From a virus: DNA of 47,493 nt. The position numbers are program-made. The stretch is from UHGV virus genome UHGV-0021965; one strand, 5' to 3'. Shown piece after piece: positions 9,001 through 12,000 of the stretch. The stretch's first letter is position 1. The number at the start of each line of letters is the position of its first letter.

Positions 9001-12000
9001 AAGCTGTCCAGCGTTGCCATCATGGCGCGTCTGGCAGACTTCAGCAGTGATGAAGGGGTTAGCTGGCCTTCCATCGCTACCATCGCGCGCCAGATTGGTG
9101 CTGGTGAGAGCACGGTTCGCACAGCCATATCTCAGCTGGAAAAAGACGGTTGGTTAACCCGCCAGCAGCGCCGTAAAGGCAACCGCAATGCATCGAACGT
9201 TTACCAGCTCAATGTTGCGAAATTACAGGCTGCTGCCTTTTCTCACCTGTCAGATTCTGACGCGTCAAAATCTGATGCCTCAAAAACCGACGCGTCAAAA
9301 TCTGAGGCATCAAAAAACGGTGAAAAAGGCGGTTTTCACCCGTCAGAATCTGGGGGGGATCCGTCAGTAAATACAACTACTGATCCATCAGATAAAAAAC
9401 CTTCTTGTCCGGTTGCGCCGCAACCAGACCATGAGGTGTTGATCACCGATCAGGCTAAACAGGTTTTGGTTCACCTGAACCAGGTGACTAACTCCCGCTA
9501 TCAGGTTTCAACAACCTCCCTCCAAAACATCCGTGCCCGAATAGGGGAAGGCTTCACCATTGAAGAGCTATCACTGGTGGTTGACTACTGCAACGCCAAG
9601 TGGAGCGATGATCTGACGATGTCGGCCTACCTTCGCCCTCAGACTCTTTTCCAGCAAACCAAGTTCCCAGGCTACCTGAAATCAGCGAACAGTTGGGTTA
9701 AAGCTGGGCGTCCTCCTCGCGTCAATGGAGAGTGGGTCCGTGAAGATGGTGTTTTCCGTTCTAGCTTCCAGAACACTGACTACAGCAAAACCCCTAAAGG
9801 TTTCAGAGGAGCGAGTTGATGAGCATGAATGCTGATAACAAATATTGCCGTGCACTGGCTGAACTCCGTTCAAAACAAGTCCACGAGTTGAAAGAGGTCG
9901 GCGATCAATGGCGCACTCCGGATCTGTTGTTTTGGGGTATCAATGCGATGTTCGGCCCTCTGGTGTTGGACCTTTTTGCCGACGACAGCAACGCCAAGTG
10001 CCCAGCATGGTACACGGCTGAAGATAATGCCCTGACACAGGATTGGTCAGAGCGTCTGGCAGAACTCGGTGGCGCCGCGTTTGCAAATCCGCCATACAGC
10101 CGTTCTCAGTACCATGAAAAGCAGGCCATCACTGGCATGACCCACATCATGAATCACACAATGGCGATGCGTGAAAAAGGTGGTCGTTACATATACCTCG
10201 TGAAGTCAGCCACAAGTGAAACATGGTGGCCGGAAGATGCCGATCACATCATGTTTATTCGTGGTCGTATTGGGTTCGATCTTCCTGTTTGGTTTGTTCC
10301 CGCTGACGAGAAGCAGCAACCCACCAGCGCATTTTTTGCTGGGGCAATCGTTGTCTTCGACAAAACCTGGCGTGGTGAAAGCTTCAGCTATATCAATCGC
10401 ACCGAACTGGAAGAAAAAGGGCGTGCAGCATTGTCATTGGCTCAATTCGCCGCGGCAAAAATGACCATTCGGTCGGTGGCGGAAAAAGCAATGCCTACTC
10501 CCATTGCAACGCCTGATGCAGAGTCGCGCATCTGGCCGCTGGAGGTTGGCCTGGTATTCAATCAGATCGAGGGGGCGGATTCTCTGGGGGTGAACCAACA
10601 GAATAAGTTGAAGGCCAATATCAACCAACTCTGGCTGGAGCGTGTGCCTACCAGCGAAATAATTAGCGTGGCTGGTGGTCTGGTTAGCAGCATGCAGGGG
10701 GCCGTCAATGCGTGAAATAATCGTTGATAACTTTGCCGGTGGTGGCGGCGCGAGTACCGGCATTGAACTGGCGATCGGGCGTAGCGTGGATATCGCTATC
10801 AATCACGACGAAAACGCTATTGCGATGCATAAGACGAATCACCCGGACACGCTGCATTATTGCGAGTCGGTGTTTGACGTTGACCCAAGCGCAGCCACCA
10901 GCGGTAAACCTGTTGGTCTGGCCTGGTTTAGCCCTGACTGTCGCCACTTTTCCAAAGCGAAGGGCGCTAAGCCAGTTAAGAAAGAGATTCGCGGGCTGGC
11001 GTGGATTGTCCTACGCTGGGCGCTGGCAGTACGTCCCCGCGTCATGATGCTGGAGAACGTCGAAGAATTTAAGACATGGGGCCCGCTGCTGGATGAAGAA
11101 TTACGCCCGGATCCTAAGCGTGCTGGTGAAACATTCGAGGCATTTGTCGGCATGCTGTCGACGGGGATCGCAGCGAATCACCCTGCACTGGCTGAGGTTT
11201 GTGAATTCCTAGCCATTGAGCCGCACGGTCAGCAGGCGCAACAGCTGATCGCCGGGCTTGGTTATGAGGTTGATTATCGCGAGCTGCGCGCGTGCGACTT
11301 CGGCGCACCGACGATCAGAAAGCGTTTCTTCATGGTCATGCGCTGTGACGGCTGTCAGATTCAGTGGCCTGAAGCGACCCATGGGGATCCAAAATCACTG
11401 GAAGTACAAAGCGGCAAGCTGGCGGCATGGCGTACCGCGGCGGAGTGTATTGACTGGAATATCCCGGCCCGGTCCATCTTCGACCGCAAAAAGCCGCTGG
11501 CGGAAAATACGCTCAAACGTATCGCGCGCGGTATCCAGCGTTTCGTTATCGAGAGTGCTTCGCCGTTTATCGTTAAGTGCAACCACACCACTTCACACGG
11601 CAAATATGATTGTTTCCGTGGGCAGGAGCTTGAGGCTCCTTTACCGACCATCACGAAAACCCACGGCTATGCGCTGGCGGTACCGCACCTGACAAAATTC
11701 CGCACCGGGGCGACAGGGCTGCCAGTAACCGAGCCGGTACCAACTGTCACCGCTGGTACGTCGGCGCGCCCGGGCGGTAATGGGCATGCACTTGGCGTAG
11801 TGGAAGCCGCACTGACACCGTTCCTGGCTGGCAATGGCGGCAGTGAGTACCAGGCAAAGCCGCGCCCGCTGGATAAACCCGCTCATACAATCCTCAAGCA
11901 GTCCCGCGCGTGCGTGGTAGCGCCGGTCATTGCCCGCCAATTTGGCGCCAGTGTTGGGCACAGGGCTGACGAACCGAGCGCGACGATTACTGCAGGTGGT

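What the first reader, a model, noticed from the sequence alone, without database searches (positions are those of the whole stretch)
9256..9318. Iteron-like 15-bp tandem repeats inside the replication initiator gene
Four tandem copies of TCTGA(C/T/G)GC(G/C/A)TCAAAA encode a (DASK)n linker between the two domains of the replication protein. This mirrors lambda, where ori iterons lie inside gene O, so this is a candidate origin. No P/DnaC-like loader gene follows, so host helicase loading must be recruited another way.
Basis: partly seen in the sequence, partly recalled or inferred. Interest (0 to 1): 0.45.

Follow-up and report, generated by a model that had tools for sequence, protein, structure and literature searches.

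The report
Replication-origin iterons inside initiator gene
A short repeated DNA motif inside a prophage's replication-initiator gene is very probably the set of binding sites, with an adjoining easily melted stretch, where that protein starts phage DNA replication, as in phage lambda; this is a new example of a textbook arrangement, notable mainly because the phage has no helicase-loader gene.

Summary
The repeat is real. TRF finds 15 bp x 4 at 9256-9315, and no dinucleotide shuffle out of 100 reaches its score. It lies in the disordered linker of a 290-aa initiator (8947-9819) with a winged-helix HTH_36 N-domain and a Phg_2220_C C-domain.

Comparison with about 130 related loci shows a DNA element, not just a (DASK)n peptide.
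- The conserved unit is the dyad TCAGAwTCTGA / TCAAAATCTGA followed by a free 3-nt spacer.
- Synonymous codons are 0.95 conserved across about 170 bp of linker, against 0.62 in both domains.
- Each of three unrelated N-domain classes on the same C-domain has its own linker motif.
- Those motifs are read in different frames in classes B and C, and the class A core is too in phiP27.
- The window's N-domain plus motif also occurs fused to other C-domains, including lambda O's.

A GATC-rich, least-stable stretch follows the last site (9358-9405). No helicase or loader gene exists in the window or in 127 sibling loci.

Copy number varies from 2 to 6, as it does in lambda versus Stx phages. Verdict: a new member of a known kind, of moderate interest.

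The parts
8947..9819 (+). Replication initiator gene (290 aa). N-terminal winged-helix domain aa 1-98, disordered linker aa 99-160, Phg_2220_C domain aa 161-290.
   Evidence: ORF. Pfam HTH_36 E = 1.2e-9 and Phg_2220_C E = 1.7e-20. TIGR02220 66.7 bits against a cut-off of 66.65. PHROG 428 'replication initiation protein' and PHROG 391 'replication initiation O-like'. AF2 model: C-domain pLDDT 80-90, linker about 28.
9250..9260 (.). Site 0: TCAGATTCTGA, a perfect 11-bp palindrome at the left edge of the array.
   Evidence: The codons TCA GAT TCT GAC are 0.97-1.00 invariant in 36 genes.
9265..9275 (.). Site 1: TCAAAATCTGA, consensus iteron.
   Evidence: Position weights from 176 units.
9280..9290 (.). 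Site 2: TCAAAAACCGA, a degenerate iteron with 2 mismatches.
9295..9305 (.). Site 3: TCAAAATCTGA, consensus iteron.
9310..9320 (.). Site 4: TCAAAAAACGG, a degenerate iteron and the last of the 15-bp register.
   Evidence: family D1.
9319..9340 (.). Spacer with A-tract / GGCGG / T-tract. In this window it is an 8-bp inverted repeat, GGTGAAAA-AGGCGG-TTTTCACC.
   Evidence: Only the AAAAAGGCGGTTTT core is kept in homologues.
9343..9353 (.). Site 5: TCAGAATCTGG, a near-perfect palindrome 33 bp after site 4. Its flank forms an inverted repeat with site 0.
   Evidence: (I1: 20-nt arms, 90% complementary). Codons CCG TCA GAA TCT are 0.94-1.00 invariant.
9358..9405 (.). Two 24-bp GATC-headed, A-rich repeats (GATCCGTCAGTAAATACAACTACT / GATCCATCAGATAAAAAACCTTCT). 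Candidate DNA-unwinding element.
   Evidence: The least stable 40-mer of the gene is 9361-9401, dG -49.0, 95.6th percentile of the window. GATC at 9358, 9382, 9441 and 9448. In 38 class A genes GATC runs at 26/kb here against 2.7/kb in the rest of the gene. Synonymous conservation is 0.90-0.94. The same place in Proteus and phiP27 holds GATCCACAAGTAAATTCAAAACAT x 2-3.
9411..9425 (.). GGTTGCG-C-CGCAACC palindrome at the start of the C-domain coding part, the junction where modules are exchanged.
   Evidence: I4. Codons TGT CCG GTT are 1.00 invariant. TGTCCG(GTT) is shared at this junction by the class A, B and C genes inspected.
8778..8957 (+). DUF4222 gene (59 aa), overlapping the initiator start by 11 nt. 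A conserved companion of loader-less initiators; role unknown.
   Evidence: Pfam DUF4222 E = 3.4e-18. Present in 116/127 Phg_2220_C loci of all three N-domain classes, and in the Klebsiella chimera. Absent from the 4 loci that have DnaC + DnaB.
9819..10715 (+). Phage Dam-type N6-adenine methyltransferase. Its ATG overlaps the initiator stop (TGATG). Possibly linked to the GATC cluster.
   Evidence: Pfam Dam E = 2e-45. Sequence. A Dam homologue follows the initiator in 23/39 class A loci.

Best explanation
The repeats are iterons of the prophage's replication origin, embedded in the linker-coding part of its own initiator gene.

Proposed mechanism:
1. The initiator is made from the rightward early operon (cro, cII-like, DUF4222, initiator).
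2. Its N-terminal winged-helix domain binds, probably as dimers, the dyad sites TCAGAwTCTGA / TCAAAATCTGA. These are spaced 15 bp apart at 9250-9320, with a sixth site at 9343-9353.
3. The resulting nucleoprotein complex strains and opens the adjacent GATC-rich, A-rich 2 x 24-bp stretch (9358-9405).
4. The C-terminal Phg_2220_C domain, the domain also found in SPP1 G38P, brings in the replicative helicase. Because the phage has no P, DnaC, G39P or DnaB gene, this must be host DnaB, recruited directly, through host DnaC, or through a small phage partner.

Shown here:
- The repeat exists and is beyond chance.
- About 170 bp are under DNA-level constraint.
- The core is dyad-symmetric.
- The motif strictly co-varies with the N-domain.
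- N-domain plus motif are exchanged as one module.
- Loader genes are absent.

Inferred: binding by the N-domain, melting at 9358-9405, origin firing, and the route of helicase recruitment.
For: Repeat beyond chance. Exact CARAWTCTG occurs at 4 positions within 9251-9352 and only once more in 47.5 kb.

Unit anatomy from 176 units in 39 genes across many enterobacterial genera:
- TCA-AAA-TCT-GAy is fixed, while the next codon is free (A, P, T, G, V, R, E, L).
- Ser = TCA in 163/176 units against 273/1047 elsewhere (p = 2e-66).
- Ser = TCT in 120/134 against 158/1047 (p = 5e-69).
- Lys = AAA 146:0 against 435:219 (p = 2e-23).

In 36 genes that are 64-82% identical in DNA, modal-codon frequency is 0.95 in the linker against 0.62 in both domains. 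27/34 linker codons are at least 0.95 invariant, against 3/123 domain codons (p = 8e-15).

Three N-domain classes share the same C-domain, each with a private motif and no cross-occurrence. Class B CATCAGGTCAAA is read in 2-3 frames in 62/63 genes. Class C carries 18-bp palindromes read in 2 frames.

The class A core persists at 52-64% N-domain identity in Proteus and phiP27 while encoding SDSD, SKSD, SESG, PESG or QNL, the last in another frame. There it is joined to a different C-domain followed by DnaC + DnaB genes. A Klebsiella phage has class A N-domain + iterons + the lambda-O C-domain (E = 6e-26).

The least stable 40-mer and a 10-fold GATC excess lie right after the last site.

Precedents: lambda ori sits in the middle of O with iterons plus an AT-rich tract (PMC7466680). 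SPP1 oriL lies inside gene 38, whose product has Phg_2220_C (PMC5737612, PMC6316719).

Phage LLS, plaque-forming on E. coli K-12, has the same module and no other annotated replication gene.
Against: - There is no experimental evidence of binding or of initiation for any member of this class. I found none in the literature.
- The putative unwinding stretch is only about 65% A+T, weaker than lambda's, and is at the 95.6th percentile of the window rather than extreme.
- There is no perfect DnaA box nearby.
- The 15-bp spacing is unusual for iterons, which are usually about two helical turns apart.
- In class A all units are in one reading frame within the window itself, so the frame argument rests on relatives.
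- Units within a gene and genes within the set are not independent, so the Fisher p-values are inflated.
- Direct sequence similarity to lambda O was not detected.
- How a helicase is recruited is unexplained.
Confidence: 0.75

Rival explanations
1. The sites are bound by the initiator, but their main role is control rather than initiation: autoregulation or a roadblock within its own gene, copy-number handcuffing, or exclusion of related phages. The true origin would lie elsewhere.
For: Sites inside the coding region could block transcription or translation of the C-domain part. SPP1 G38P also binds a second site, oriR, where it can stall forks (PMC3485210 abstract). Cloned lambda ori regions give exclusion phenotypes (PMC3349717 abstract). 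The unwinding stretch is only moderately A+T-rich.
Against: No second cluster of the motif exists in the 47.5-kb window. The site cluster is immediately followed by a conserved GATC/A-rich low-stability stretch. That matches the iterons-plus-AT-rich order of proven origins in lambda and SPP1 (PMC7466680, PMC5737612). The two roles are not exclusive.
Confidence: 0.12
2. The repeat is only a low-complexity peptide linker, (S-D-A-S-K)n, expanded by replication slippage. The DNA has no function of its own.
For: The linker is predicted disordered. Copy number varies from 2 to 6 in multiples of 15 bp. All window copies are in frame.
Against: Synonymous positions are nearly invariant, while the one free position is a whole codon that changes the amino acid. 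The core is a DNA palindrome. The same core encodes different peptides, and in phiP27 a different frame. Classes B and C read their motif in 2-3 frames. The motif tracks the N-domain, not the linker's position or the C-domain.
Confidence: 0.04
3. The DNA conservation of the linker reflects its use as a homologous-recombination junction for module exchange between mosaic phages, that is, recent shared ancestry rather than site function.
For: The N-domain + linker is found on at least four different C-domains, and the C-domain on three N-domains, so exchange points flank this region. TGTCCGGTT at the C-domain border is shared by all classes.
Against: In Proteus and phiP27 the surrounding linker sequence is entirely different, yet the 9-bp core is kept and reiterated. 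Recent exchange cannot explain that. Exchange junctions also do not explain dyad symmetry or the 15-bp periodicity.
Confidence: 0.05
4. The constraint comes from an overlapping gene or a structured RNA. An example is the antisense ORF 9209-9376 (55 aa), or the hairpins in the region.
For: One antisense frame is open across the block in 33/33 class A genes. The single strand folds better than all 200 shuffles, z = -4.5. A terminator-like hairpin lies on the minus strand at 9340-9319.
Against: An open frame and foldability follow automatically from tandem palindromic units. The antisense ORF starts with TTG and would encode a QILTRQNL repeat. There is no Rfam match at E up to 1. No promoter-like site lies in 7200-10000. 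The hairpin is not conserved in homologues.
Confidence: 0.03

Closest known systems
Phage lambda O protein and ori-lambda (four iterons plus an AT-rich tract in the middle of gene O); Stx-phage variants with six iterons
   Same: - Same genome position: after cro and cII in the rightward early operon.
- A two-domain initiator with the sites in the linker-coding DNA. Lambda iterons fall at codons 117-145; here the sites fall at codons 102-136.
- Dyad-symmetric sites containing a TCAAAA tract.
- Site number varies between relatives.
- An easily melted stretch lies on the C-terminal side.
- The N-domain and its sites are exchangeable as one module. A natural chimera joins this N-domain and these iterons to lambda O's C-domain.
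   Different: - No detectable sequence similarity to lambda O; Pfam PF04492 is not matched.
- Sites are 11 bp on a 15-bp spacing, not 18-19 bp on a 20-24-bp spacing.
- The melted stretch is less A+T-rich and is GATC-rich.
- The C-domain is Phg_2220_C.
- No P gene follows.
Bacillus phage SPP1 G38P (replisome organizer) and oriL inside gene 38
   Same: - The C-domain is the same Pfam family: G38P aa 157-233, E = 2e-20, and 37% identity to the window protein.
- The origin is embedded in the initiator's own gene, with repeats bound by the protein next to an A+T-rich unwinding element. This has been shown in vivo and in vitro (PMC5737612, PMC6316719).
- Repeats in gene 38 lie just upstream of the Phg_2220_C part.
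   Different: - The N-domain and the repeats are unrelated.
- SPP1 encodes its own loader G39P and helicase G40P directly downstream.
- The window phage and 127 sibling loci have neither.
phiP27 L17-L18-L19 and the Proteus prophage modules (same N-domain class with DnaC-like and DnaB-like genes)
   Same: - The N-domain is 52-64% identical.
- Five CAGAwTCTG sites lie in the linker, followed by GATC/A-rich repeats.
   Different: - A different C-domain.
- DnaC-like and DnaB-like genes follow.
- No DUF4222 gene is present.
- Sites are partly on a 33-bp period, and one is in another reading frame.
Iteron plasmids (pSC101 RepA, R6K pi, RK2 TrfA) — comparison from general knowledge and the review PMC4980987, whose abstract only was seen
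   Same: A winged-helix initiator binds tandem repeats next to an unwinding element. No helicase loader of its own, so the host DnaB is used.
   Different: - Plasmid iterons are usually 17-22 bp direct repeats about two turns apart, lie outside the rep gene, and are helped by DnaA boxes.
- Here the sites are dyads 15 bp apart inside the gene, with no perfect DnaA box nearby.

Membership tests
Origin embedded in the initiator gene (lambda / SPP1 architecture) | Three or more reiterated sites in the DNA that encodes the interdomain linker of the initiator | tested here: met
   Six sites at 9250-9353, between HTH_36 and Phg_2220_C.
Origin embedded in the initiator gene (lambda / SPP1 architecture) | Sites are selected as DNA, independently of the encoded peptide | tested here: met
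   Codon conservation 0.95 against 0.62, p = 8e-15. Codon-usage tests. The motif is read in different frames in relatives.
Origin embedded in the initiator gene (lambda / SPP1 architecture) | Site sequence co-varies with the initiator's DNA-binding domain | tested here: met
   Three N-domain classes have three private motifs with zero cross-occurrence. The same motif is kept with the same N-domain on four different C-domains.
Origin embedded in the initiator gene (lambda / SPP1 architecture) | An A+T-rich unwinding element next to the sites | tested here: inconclusive
   9361-9401 is the least stable 40-mer of the gene but only at the 95.6th percentile of the window, about 65% A+T. It is conserved and GATC-rich.
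Origin embedded in the initiator gene (lambda / SPP1 architecture) | The initiator binds the sites and the fragment supports initiator-dependent replication | not testable with these tools
   Needs EMSA or footprinting and an ori-plasmid assay.
Lambda O protein family (Pfam PF04492, Phage_rep_O) | Sequence match to the O N-terminal domain model or to lambda O | tested here: not met
   No PF04492 hit at E up to 0.01, although lambda O itself scores 123 bits. BLASTP against lambda O gives E = 2. hhalign probability is 0.2%. There are weaker links: PHROG 391 'replication initiation O-like' at E = 1.5e-49 over aa 1-158, and 41% identity over aa 25-94 to the O gene of Stx phages 24B and Min27.
Lambda O protein family (Pfam PF04492, Phage_rep_O) | A partner P (helicase-loader) gene directly downstream | tested here: not met
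   The next genes are the Dam and Dcm methyltransferases. phmmer with lambda P finds nothing in the window or in any fetched locus.
Phg_2220_C / TIGR02220 replisome-organizer proteins (SPP1 G38P type) | C-terminal domain matches PF09524 / TIGR02220 above the curated cut-off | tested here: met
   PF09524: 73.3 bits against a cut-off of 27. TIGR02220: 66.7 against 66.65. 37% identity to G38P aa 151-244, E = 9e-15. Foldseek on BFVD finds Phg_2220_C proteins and replisome organizers.
Phg_2220_C / TIGR02220 replisome-organizer proteins (SPP1 G38P type) | Works with a phage-encoded loader and helicase (G39P / G40P) | tested here: not met
   None in the window, and none within 3 kb of the gene in the other 126 loci.
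Iteron-plasmid Rep origins | Direct repeats of about 17-22 bp on a spacing of about 22 bp, outside the rep gene, with DnaA boxes | tested here: not met
   15-bp spacing, dyad sites, inside the gene. Perfect DnaA boxes occur only at 6147 and 45579.

The most novel reading that the evidence does not exclude
These enterobacterial lambdoid phages use a loader-independent route to the host helicase. Either the Phg_2220_C domain captures host DnaB or DnaB-DnaC directly at the opened GATC/A-rich repeats, or the 59-aa DUF4222 protein is a new minimal adaptor that replaces lambda P or DnaC. DUF4222 is translationally coupled to the initiator. It is present in 116/127 loader-less loci and in the Klebsiella chimera, and absent from the 4 loci that carry DnaC + DnaB. 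The phage Dam methylase and the conserved GATC cluster could add a methylation-dependent timing control.
Probability: 0.2. Interest if true: 0.6.

Novelty: new member of a known kind. Interest (0 to 1): 0.4.

Why it matters
It gives a precise, testable origin (sites at 9250-9353, melting region at 9358-9405) for a widespread but unstudied replication module. The module is found in prophages of Salmonella, Escherichia (including Nissle 1917), Enterobacter, Klebsiella and related genera.

It shows that the rule [quoted passage not shown] extends beyond the lambda O family.

It isolates a clean question: how does an O-like initiator with no P, DnaC or helicase gene load DnaB? DUF4222 and the Phg_2220_C domain are the concrete candidates.

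Practically, the sites could serve for phage-derived vectors, incompatibility or exclusion tools, and better annotation of genes now labelled "conserved phage C-terminal domain-containing protein".

Tried and rejected
- Homology to lambda O was sought three ways and not found: Pfam, hhalign of a 14-sequence profile against lambda O, and BLASTP. A paper reports that HHpred assigns HTH_36 + PF09524 to lambda O (PMC5509034). I could not reproduce that with the shallow profiles available.
- The AlphaFold2 model was good only for the C-domain. Foldseek against PDB gave nothing below E = 0.7, only weak MarR/GntR winged-helix hits. phmmer against PDB gave only weak winged-helix hits. The fold therefore gave no clue to the helicase partner.
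- DnaA boxes: none near the array.
- Rfam: no match in 7000-11000.
- Promoter scan: nothing in 7200-10000.
- The 12-mer with up to 2 mismatches is not enriched over the whole window, 9 found against 7.6 expected. Only the clustering is significant, so a second origin-like cluster was rejected.
- Overlapping-ORF idea: an antisense frame is open in all genes, but this is a by-product of the repeat.
- Literature searches found no prior description: Pfam/TIGR names, iterons and lambdoid terms, DUF4222, and the motif itself, which matched only primers.
- The term "initiator-solo" (Weigel and Seitz 2006, from memory) is not in the searchable library.
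Full report
**1. The observation**

Tandem Repeats Finder reports a 15-bp unit x 4.0 at 9256-9315 (score 78). It also reports the same array as a 30-bp unit x 1.9 (92% matches, score 102). In 100 dinucleotide-preserving shuffles of the window the best TRF score was 60, so the repeat is not chance.

The units are TCTGACGCGTCAAAA, TCTGATGCCTCAAAA, ACCGACGCGTCAAAA and TCTGAGGCATCAAAA. They encode SDASK-SDASK-TDASK-SEASK within ORF 8947-9819 (290 aa).

**2. The gene and its setting**

The protein has a winged-helix N-domain: Pfam HTH_36, with weak DnaD_N, GntR and MarR hits. Its C-terminal domain is Phg_2220_C. PHROGs label it "replication initiation protein", "replication initiation O-like" and "primosomal protein". 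AlphaFold2 models residues 100-154 as disordered (pLDDT about 28) and the C-domain as a confident helical bundle.

The window is a lambdoid prophage. Its genes run in this order:
- integrase, exonuclease, DUF2303
- cI-like repressor (6646-7305, minus strand), Cro (7398-7586), CII-like (8060-8605)
- DUF4222 (8778-8957), the initiator
- Dam methylase, Dcm methylase, Ant, DUF968, Q
- a third methylase, lysozyme, Nu1

No other replication gene is present. Near-identical proteins are labelled Salmonella enterica.

**3. Relatives**

I collected 8 annotated loci, 44 loci from genomes using the whole protein and 80 viral contigs using the C-domain. The genes fall into three classes that share the C-domain but have unrelated N-domains:
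- class A, the window's type: 39 distinct genes from many enterobacterial genera, 64-82% DNA identity to the window
- class B: 63 genes
- class C, the mEp390 type: 19 genes

**4. The repeat is a DNA element**

(a) In 176 class A units the positions T-C-A-A-A-A-T-C-T-G-A-y are nearly fixed. The following codon is free: GCN, CCN, ACN, GGG, GTA, CGN, GAG, CTG. Codon use inside the units departs sharply from the rest of the same genes:
- Ser is TCA in 163/176 units against 273/1047 elsewhere.
- The other Ser is TCT in 120/134 against 158/1047.
- Lys is AAA 146:0 against 435:219.

These p-values are inflated by non-independence of units and genes.

(b) A control that shares the phylogeny avoids that problem. 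At columns where the amino acid is conserved, the modal codon is used by 0.95 of genes in the linker (residues 99-156). In the N- and C-domains the figure is 0.62. 27/34 linker codons are at least 0.95 invariant, against 3/123 domain codons (Mann-Whitney p = 8e-15). The constrained stretch is about 9241-9415, well beyond the four copies.

(c) The core is a dyad. TCAGATTCTGA at 9250-9260 is a perfect palindrome. TCAGAATCTGG at 9343-9353 is nearly one, and the tandem units are its TCAAAATCTGA variant. Exact CARAWTCTG occurs at four positions in 9251-9352 and only once elsewhere in 47.5 kb.

(d) The motif follows the N-domain:
- The class A core is in 38/39 class A genes and in no class B or C gene.
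- Class B has CATCAGGTCAAA 3-5 times per gene in 62/63 genes, and class A and C genes lack it.
- Class C has TTCCGCAGAATCGCGGAA-type 18-bp palindromes.

(e) In 62/63 class B genes the motif is read in two or three reading frames. Class C reads its motif as SAESRN and as PQNHGT.

(f) The class A N-domain also occurs on other C-domains, and the core goes with it.
- Proteus prophages, at 52% identity, carry CCAGATTCTGAC, TCAGATTCTGAC and three CCAGAATCTGG on a 33-bp period.
- phiP27 L17, at 64% identity, carries five sites. One of them is read as Q-N-L instead of S-E-S.
- Klebsiella phage 1 LV-2017 carries N-domain plus iterons fused to a C-domain 38% identical to lambda O residues 179-280 (E = 6e-26).

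The same 9-bp core therefore encodes SDSD, SKSD, SESG, PESG or QNL.

**5. What lies next to the sites**

After a spacer with A- and T-tracts (9319-9340) and site 5 come two 24-bp repeats, each headed by GATCC and A-rich (9358-9381 and 9382-9405). The least stable 40-mer of the gene is 9361-9401 (dG -49.0 kcal/mol, 95.6th percentile of the window).

GATC occurs at 9358, 9382, 9441 and 9448. Across 38 class A genes GATC density is 26/kb in the 110 nt after the last site, against 2.7/kb in the rest of the gene. Proteus and phiP27 have GATCCACAAGTAAATTCAAAACAT x 2-3 at the same place.

I take this as the candidate unwinding element. It is only about 65% A+T, so this step is inferred. No perfect DnaA box is near.

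**6. Helicase loading**

phmmer with lambda P, SPP1 G39P, and a DnaC-like and a DnaB-like protein found nothing in the whole window, and nothing within 3 kb of the initiator in the other 126 Phg_2220_C loci. The four loci with the class A N-domain on another C-domain (three Proteus loci and phiP27) have DnaC + DnaB immediately downstream. Phage LLS forms plaques on E. coli K-12, has the same early region, and has no other annotated replication gene.

A 59-aa DUF4222 gene overlaps the initiator start by 11 nt. It is present in 116/127 loader-less loci of all three classes and in the Klebsiella chimera. It is absent from the four loci with DnaC + DnaB. This is a lead, not a result: the four loci represent only two lineages.

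**7. Comparison with what is known**

Lambda's origin lies in the middle of O, with iterons at codons 117-145 followed by an A-rich tract (PMC7466680). Stx phages have six iterons where lambda has four, and two iterons plus the AT-rich tract suffice in vitro (PMC7466680). The copy-number variation seen here, 2-6 copies, therefore does not argue against function.

SPP1 G38P carries Phg_2220_C and is 37% identical to the window's C-domain. Its oriL is embedded in gene 38 and is sufficient for replication in vitro (PMC5737612, PMC6316719).

The window protein is not a sequence member of the lambda O family. It is a member of the Phg_2220_C family and works like both.

I found no paper describing this motif or an origin for this class.

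**8. Verdict**

- Probability that the repeats are initiator-binding iterons: about 0.8.
- Probability that they, together with 9358-9405, form the origin: about 0.75.
- It is a new member of a known kind.
- The open and more interesting part is how the helicase is recruited.

Noticed in passing
window 8778-8957 (+); also L136:2314-2508 (unannotated there): The 59-aa DUF4222 gene is translationally coupled to the initiator. It accompanies 116/127 loader-less initiators of all three N-domain classes and the Klebsiella lambda-O-type chimera. It is missing from the four loci that carry DnaC + DnaB genes. No function is described in the literature.
   Followed up: partly
window 8606-8777 and ORF 8611-8937 (+): There is a 170-bp gap between the cII-like gene and DUF4222. 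It is G+C-rich and has small palindromes (for example CCCGGTACCGGG, 8658-8669). A 108-aa ORF covers the gap and overlaps DUF4222 in another frame. That ORF matches PHROG 1170 (E = 1e-16) and is the gene annotated in phage LLS (gene 43). RefSeq annotates DUF4222 instead. Which is real, or whether both are, is unresolved.
   Followed up: partly
window 9358-9452 and 9819-10715: Four GATC sites lie within 95 bp right after the iterons; the first two are conserved in class A. A phage Dam-type methylase gene has its ATG overlapping the initiator stop codon. This suggests methylation-linked origin control, as at oriC and P1 oriR (the comparison is from general knowledge).
   Followed up: partly
window 9819-10715, 10675-12645, 16058-17110: The prophage has three DNA methyltransferase genes: Dam-type, C5-cytosine (656 aa) and N6_N4 type.
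   Followed up: no
L136 (Klebsiella phage 1 LV-2017) 2501-3454: A natural chimera: class A N-domain and iterons joined to a lambda-O-like C-domain (E = 6e-26). The next genes are a Dam methylase and RusA, not P. A lambda-O-type C-domain without P is unexpected.
   Followed up: partly
L133 (lambda) 1163-1180: Just right of lambda's A-rich tract is GTCAGAGAATTCTGGCG. This palindrome resembles the class A site GTCAGAATCTGG. Lambda, class A and class B sites all contain TCAAAA. This may be coincidence or a shared bending or recognition theme.
   Followed up: no
window 9340-9319 (minus strand): A terminator-like hairpin, GGTGAAAACCGCCTTTTTCACC followed by a T-run, lies on the antisense strand inside the array. 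The stem is only partly conserved in homologues.
   Followed up: partly
window 26786-26838: A second strong tandem repeat, CCGGCAGCA x 5.9 (97% matches, TRF score 99). It encodes (GST)n in a 156-aa ORF (26575-27045) in the late region.
   Followed up: no
L004 (E. coli ECONIH4) versus L008 (ECONIH5): Two closely related E. coli prophages (same flanking proteins, initiators differing at a single residue outside the array) differ by a clean 30-bp (two-unit) insertion in the iteron array, 6 copies against 4. This shows recent expansion or contraction in steps of the 30-bp double unit.
   Followed up: yes
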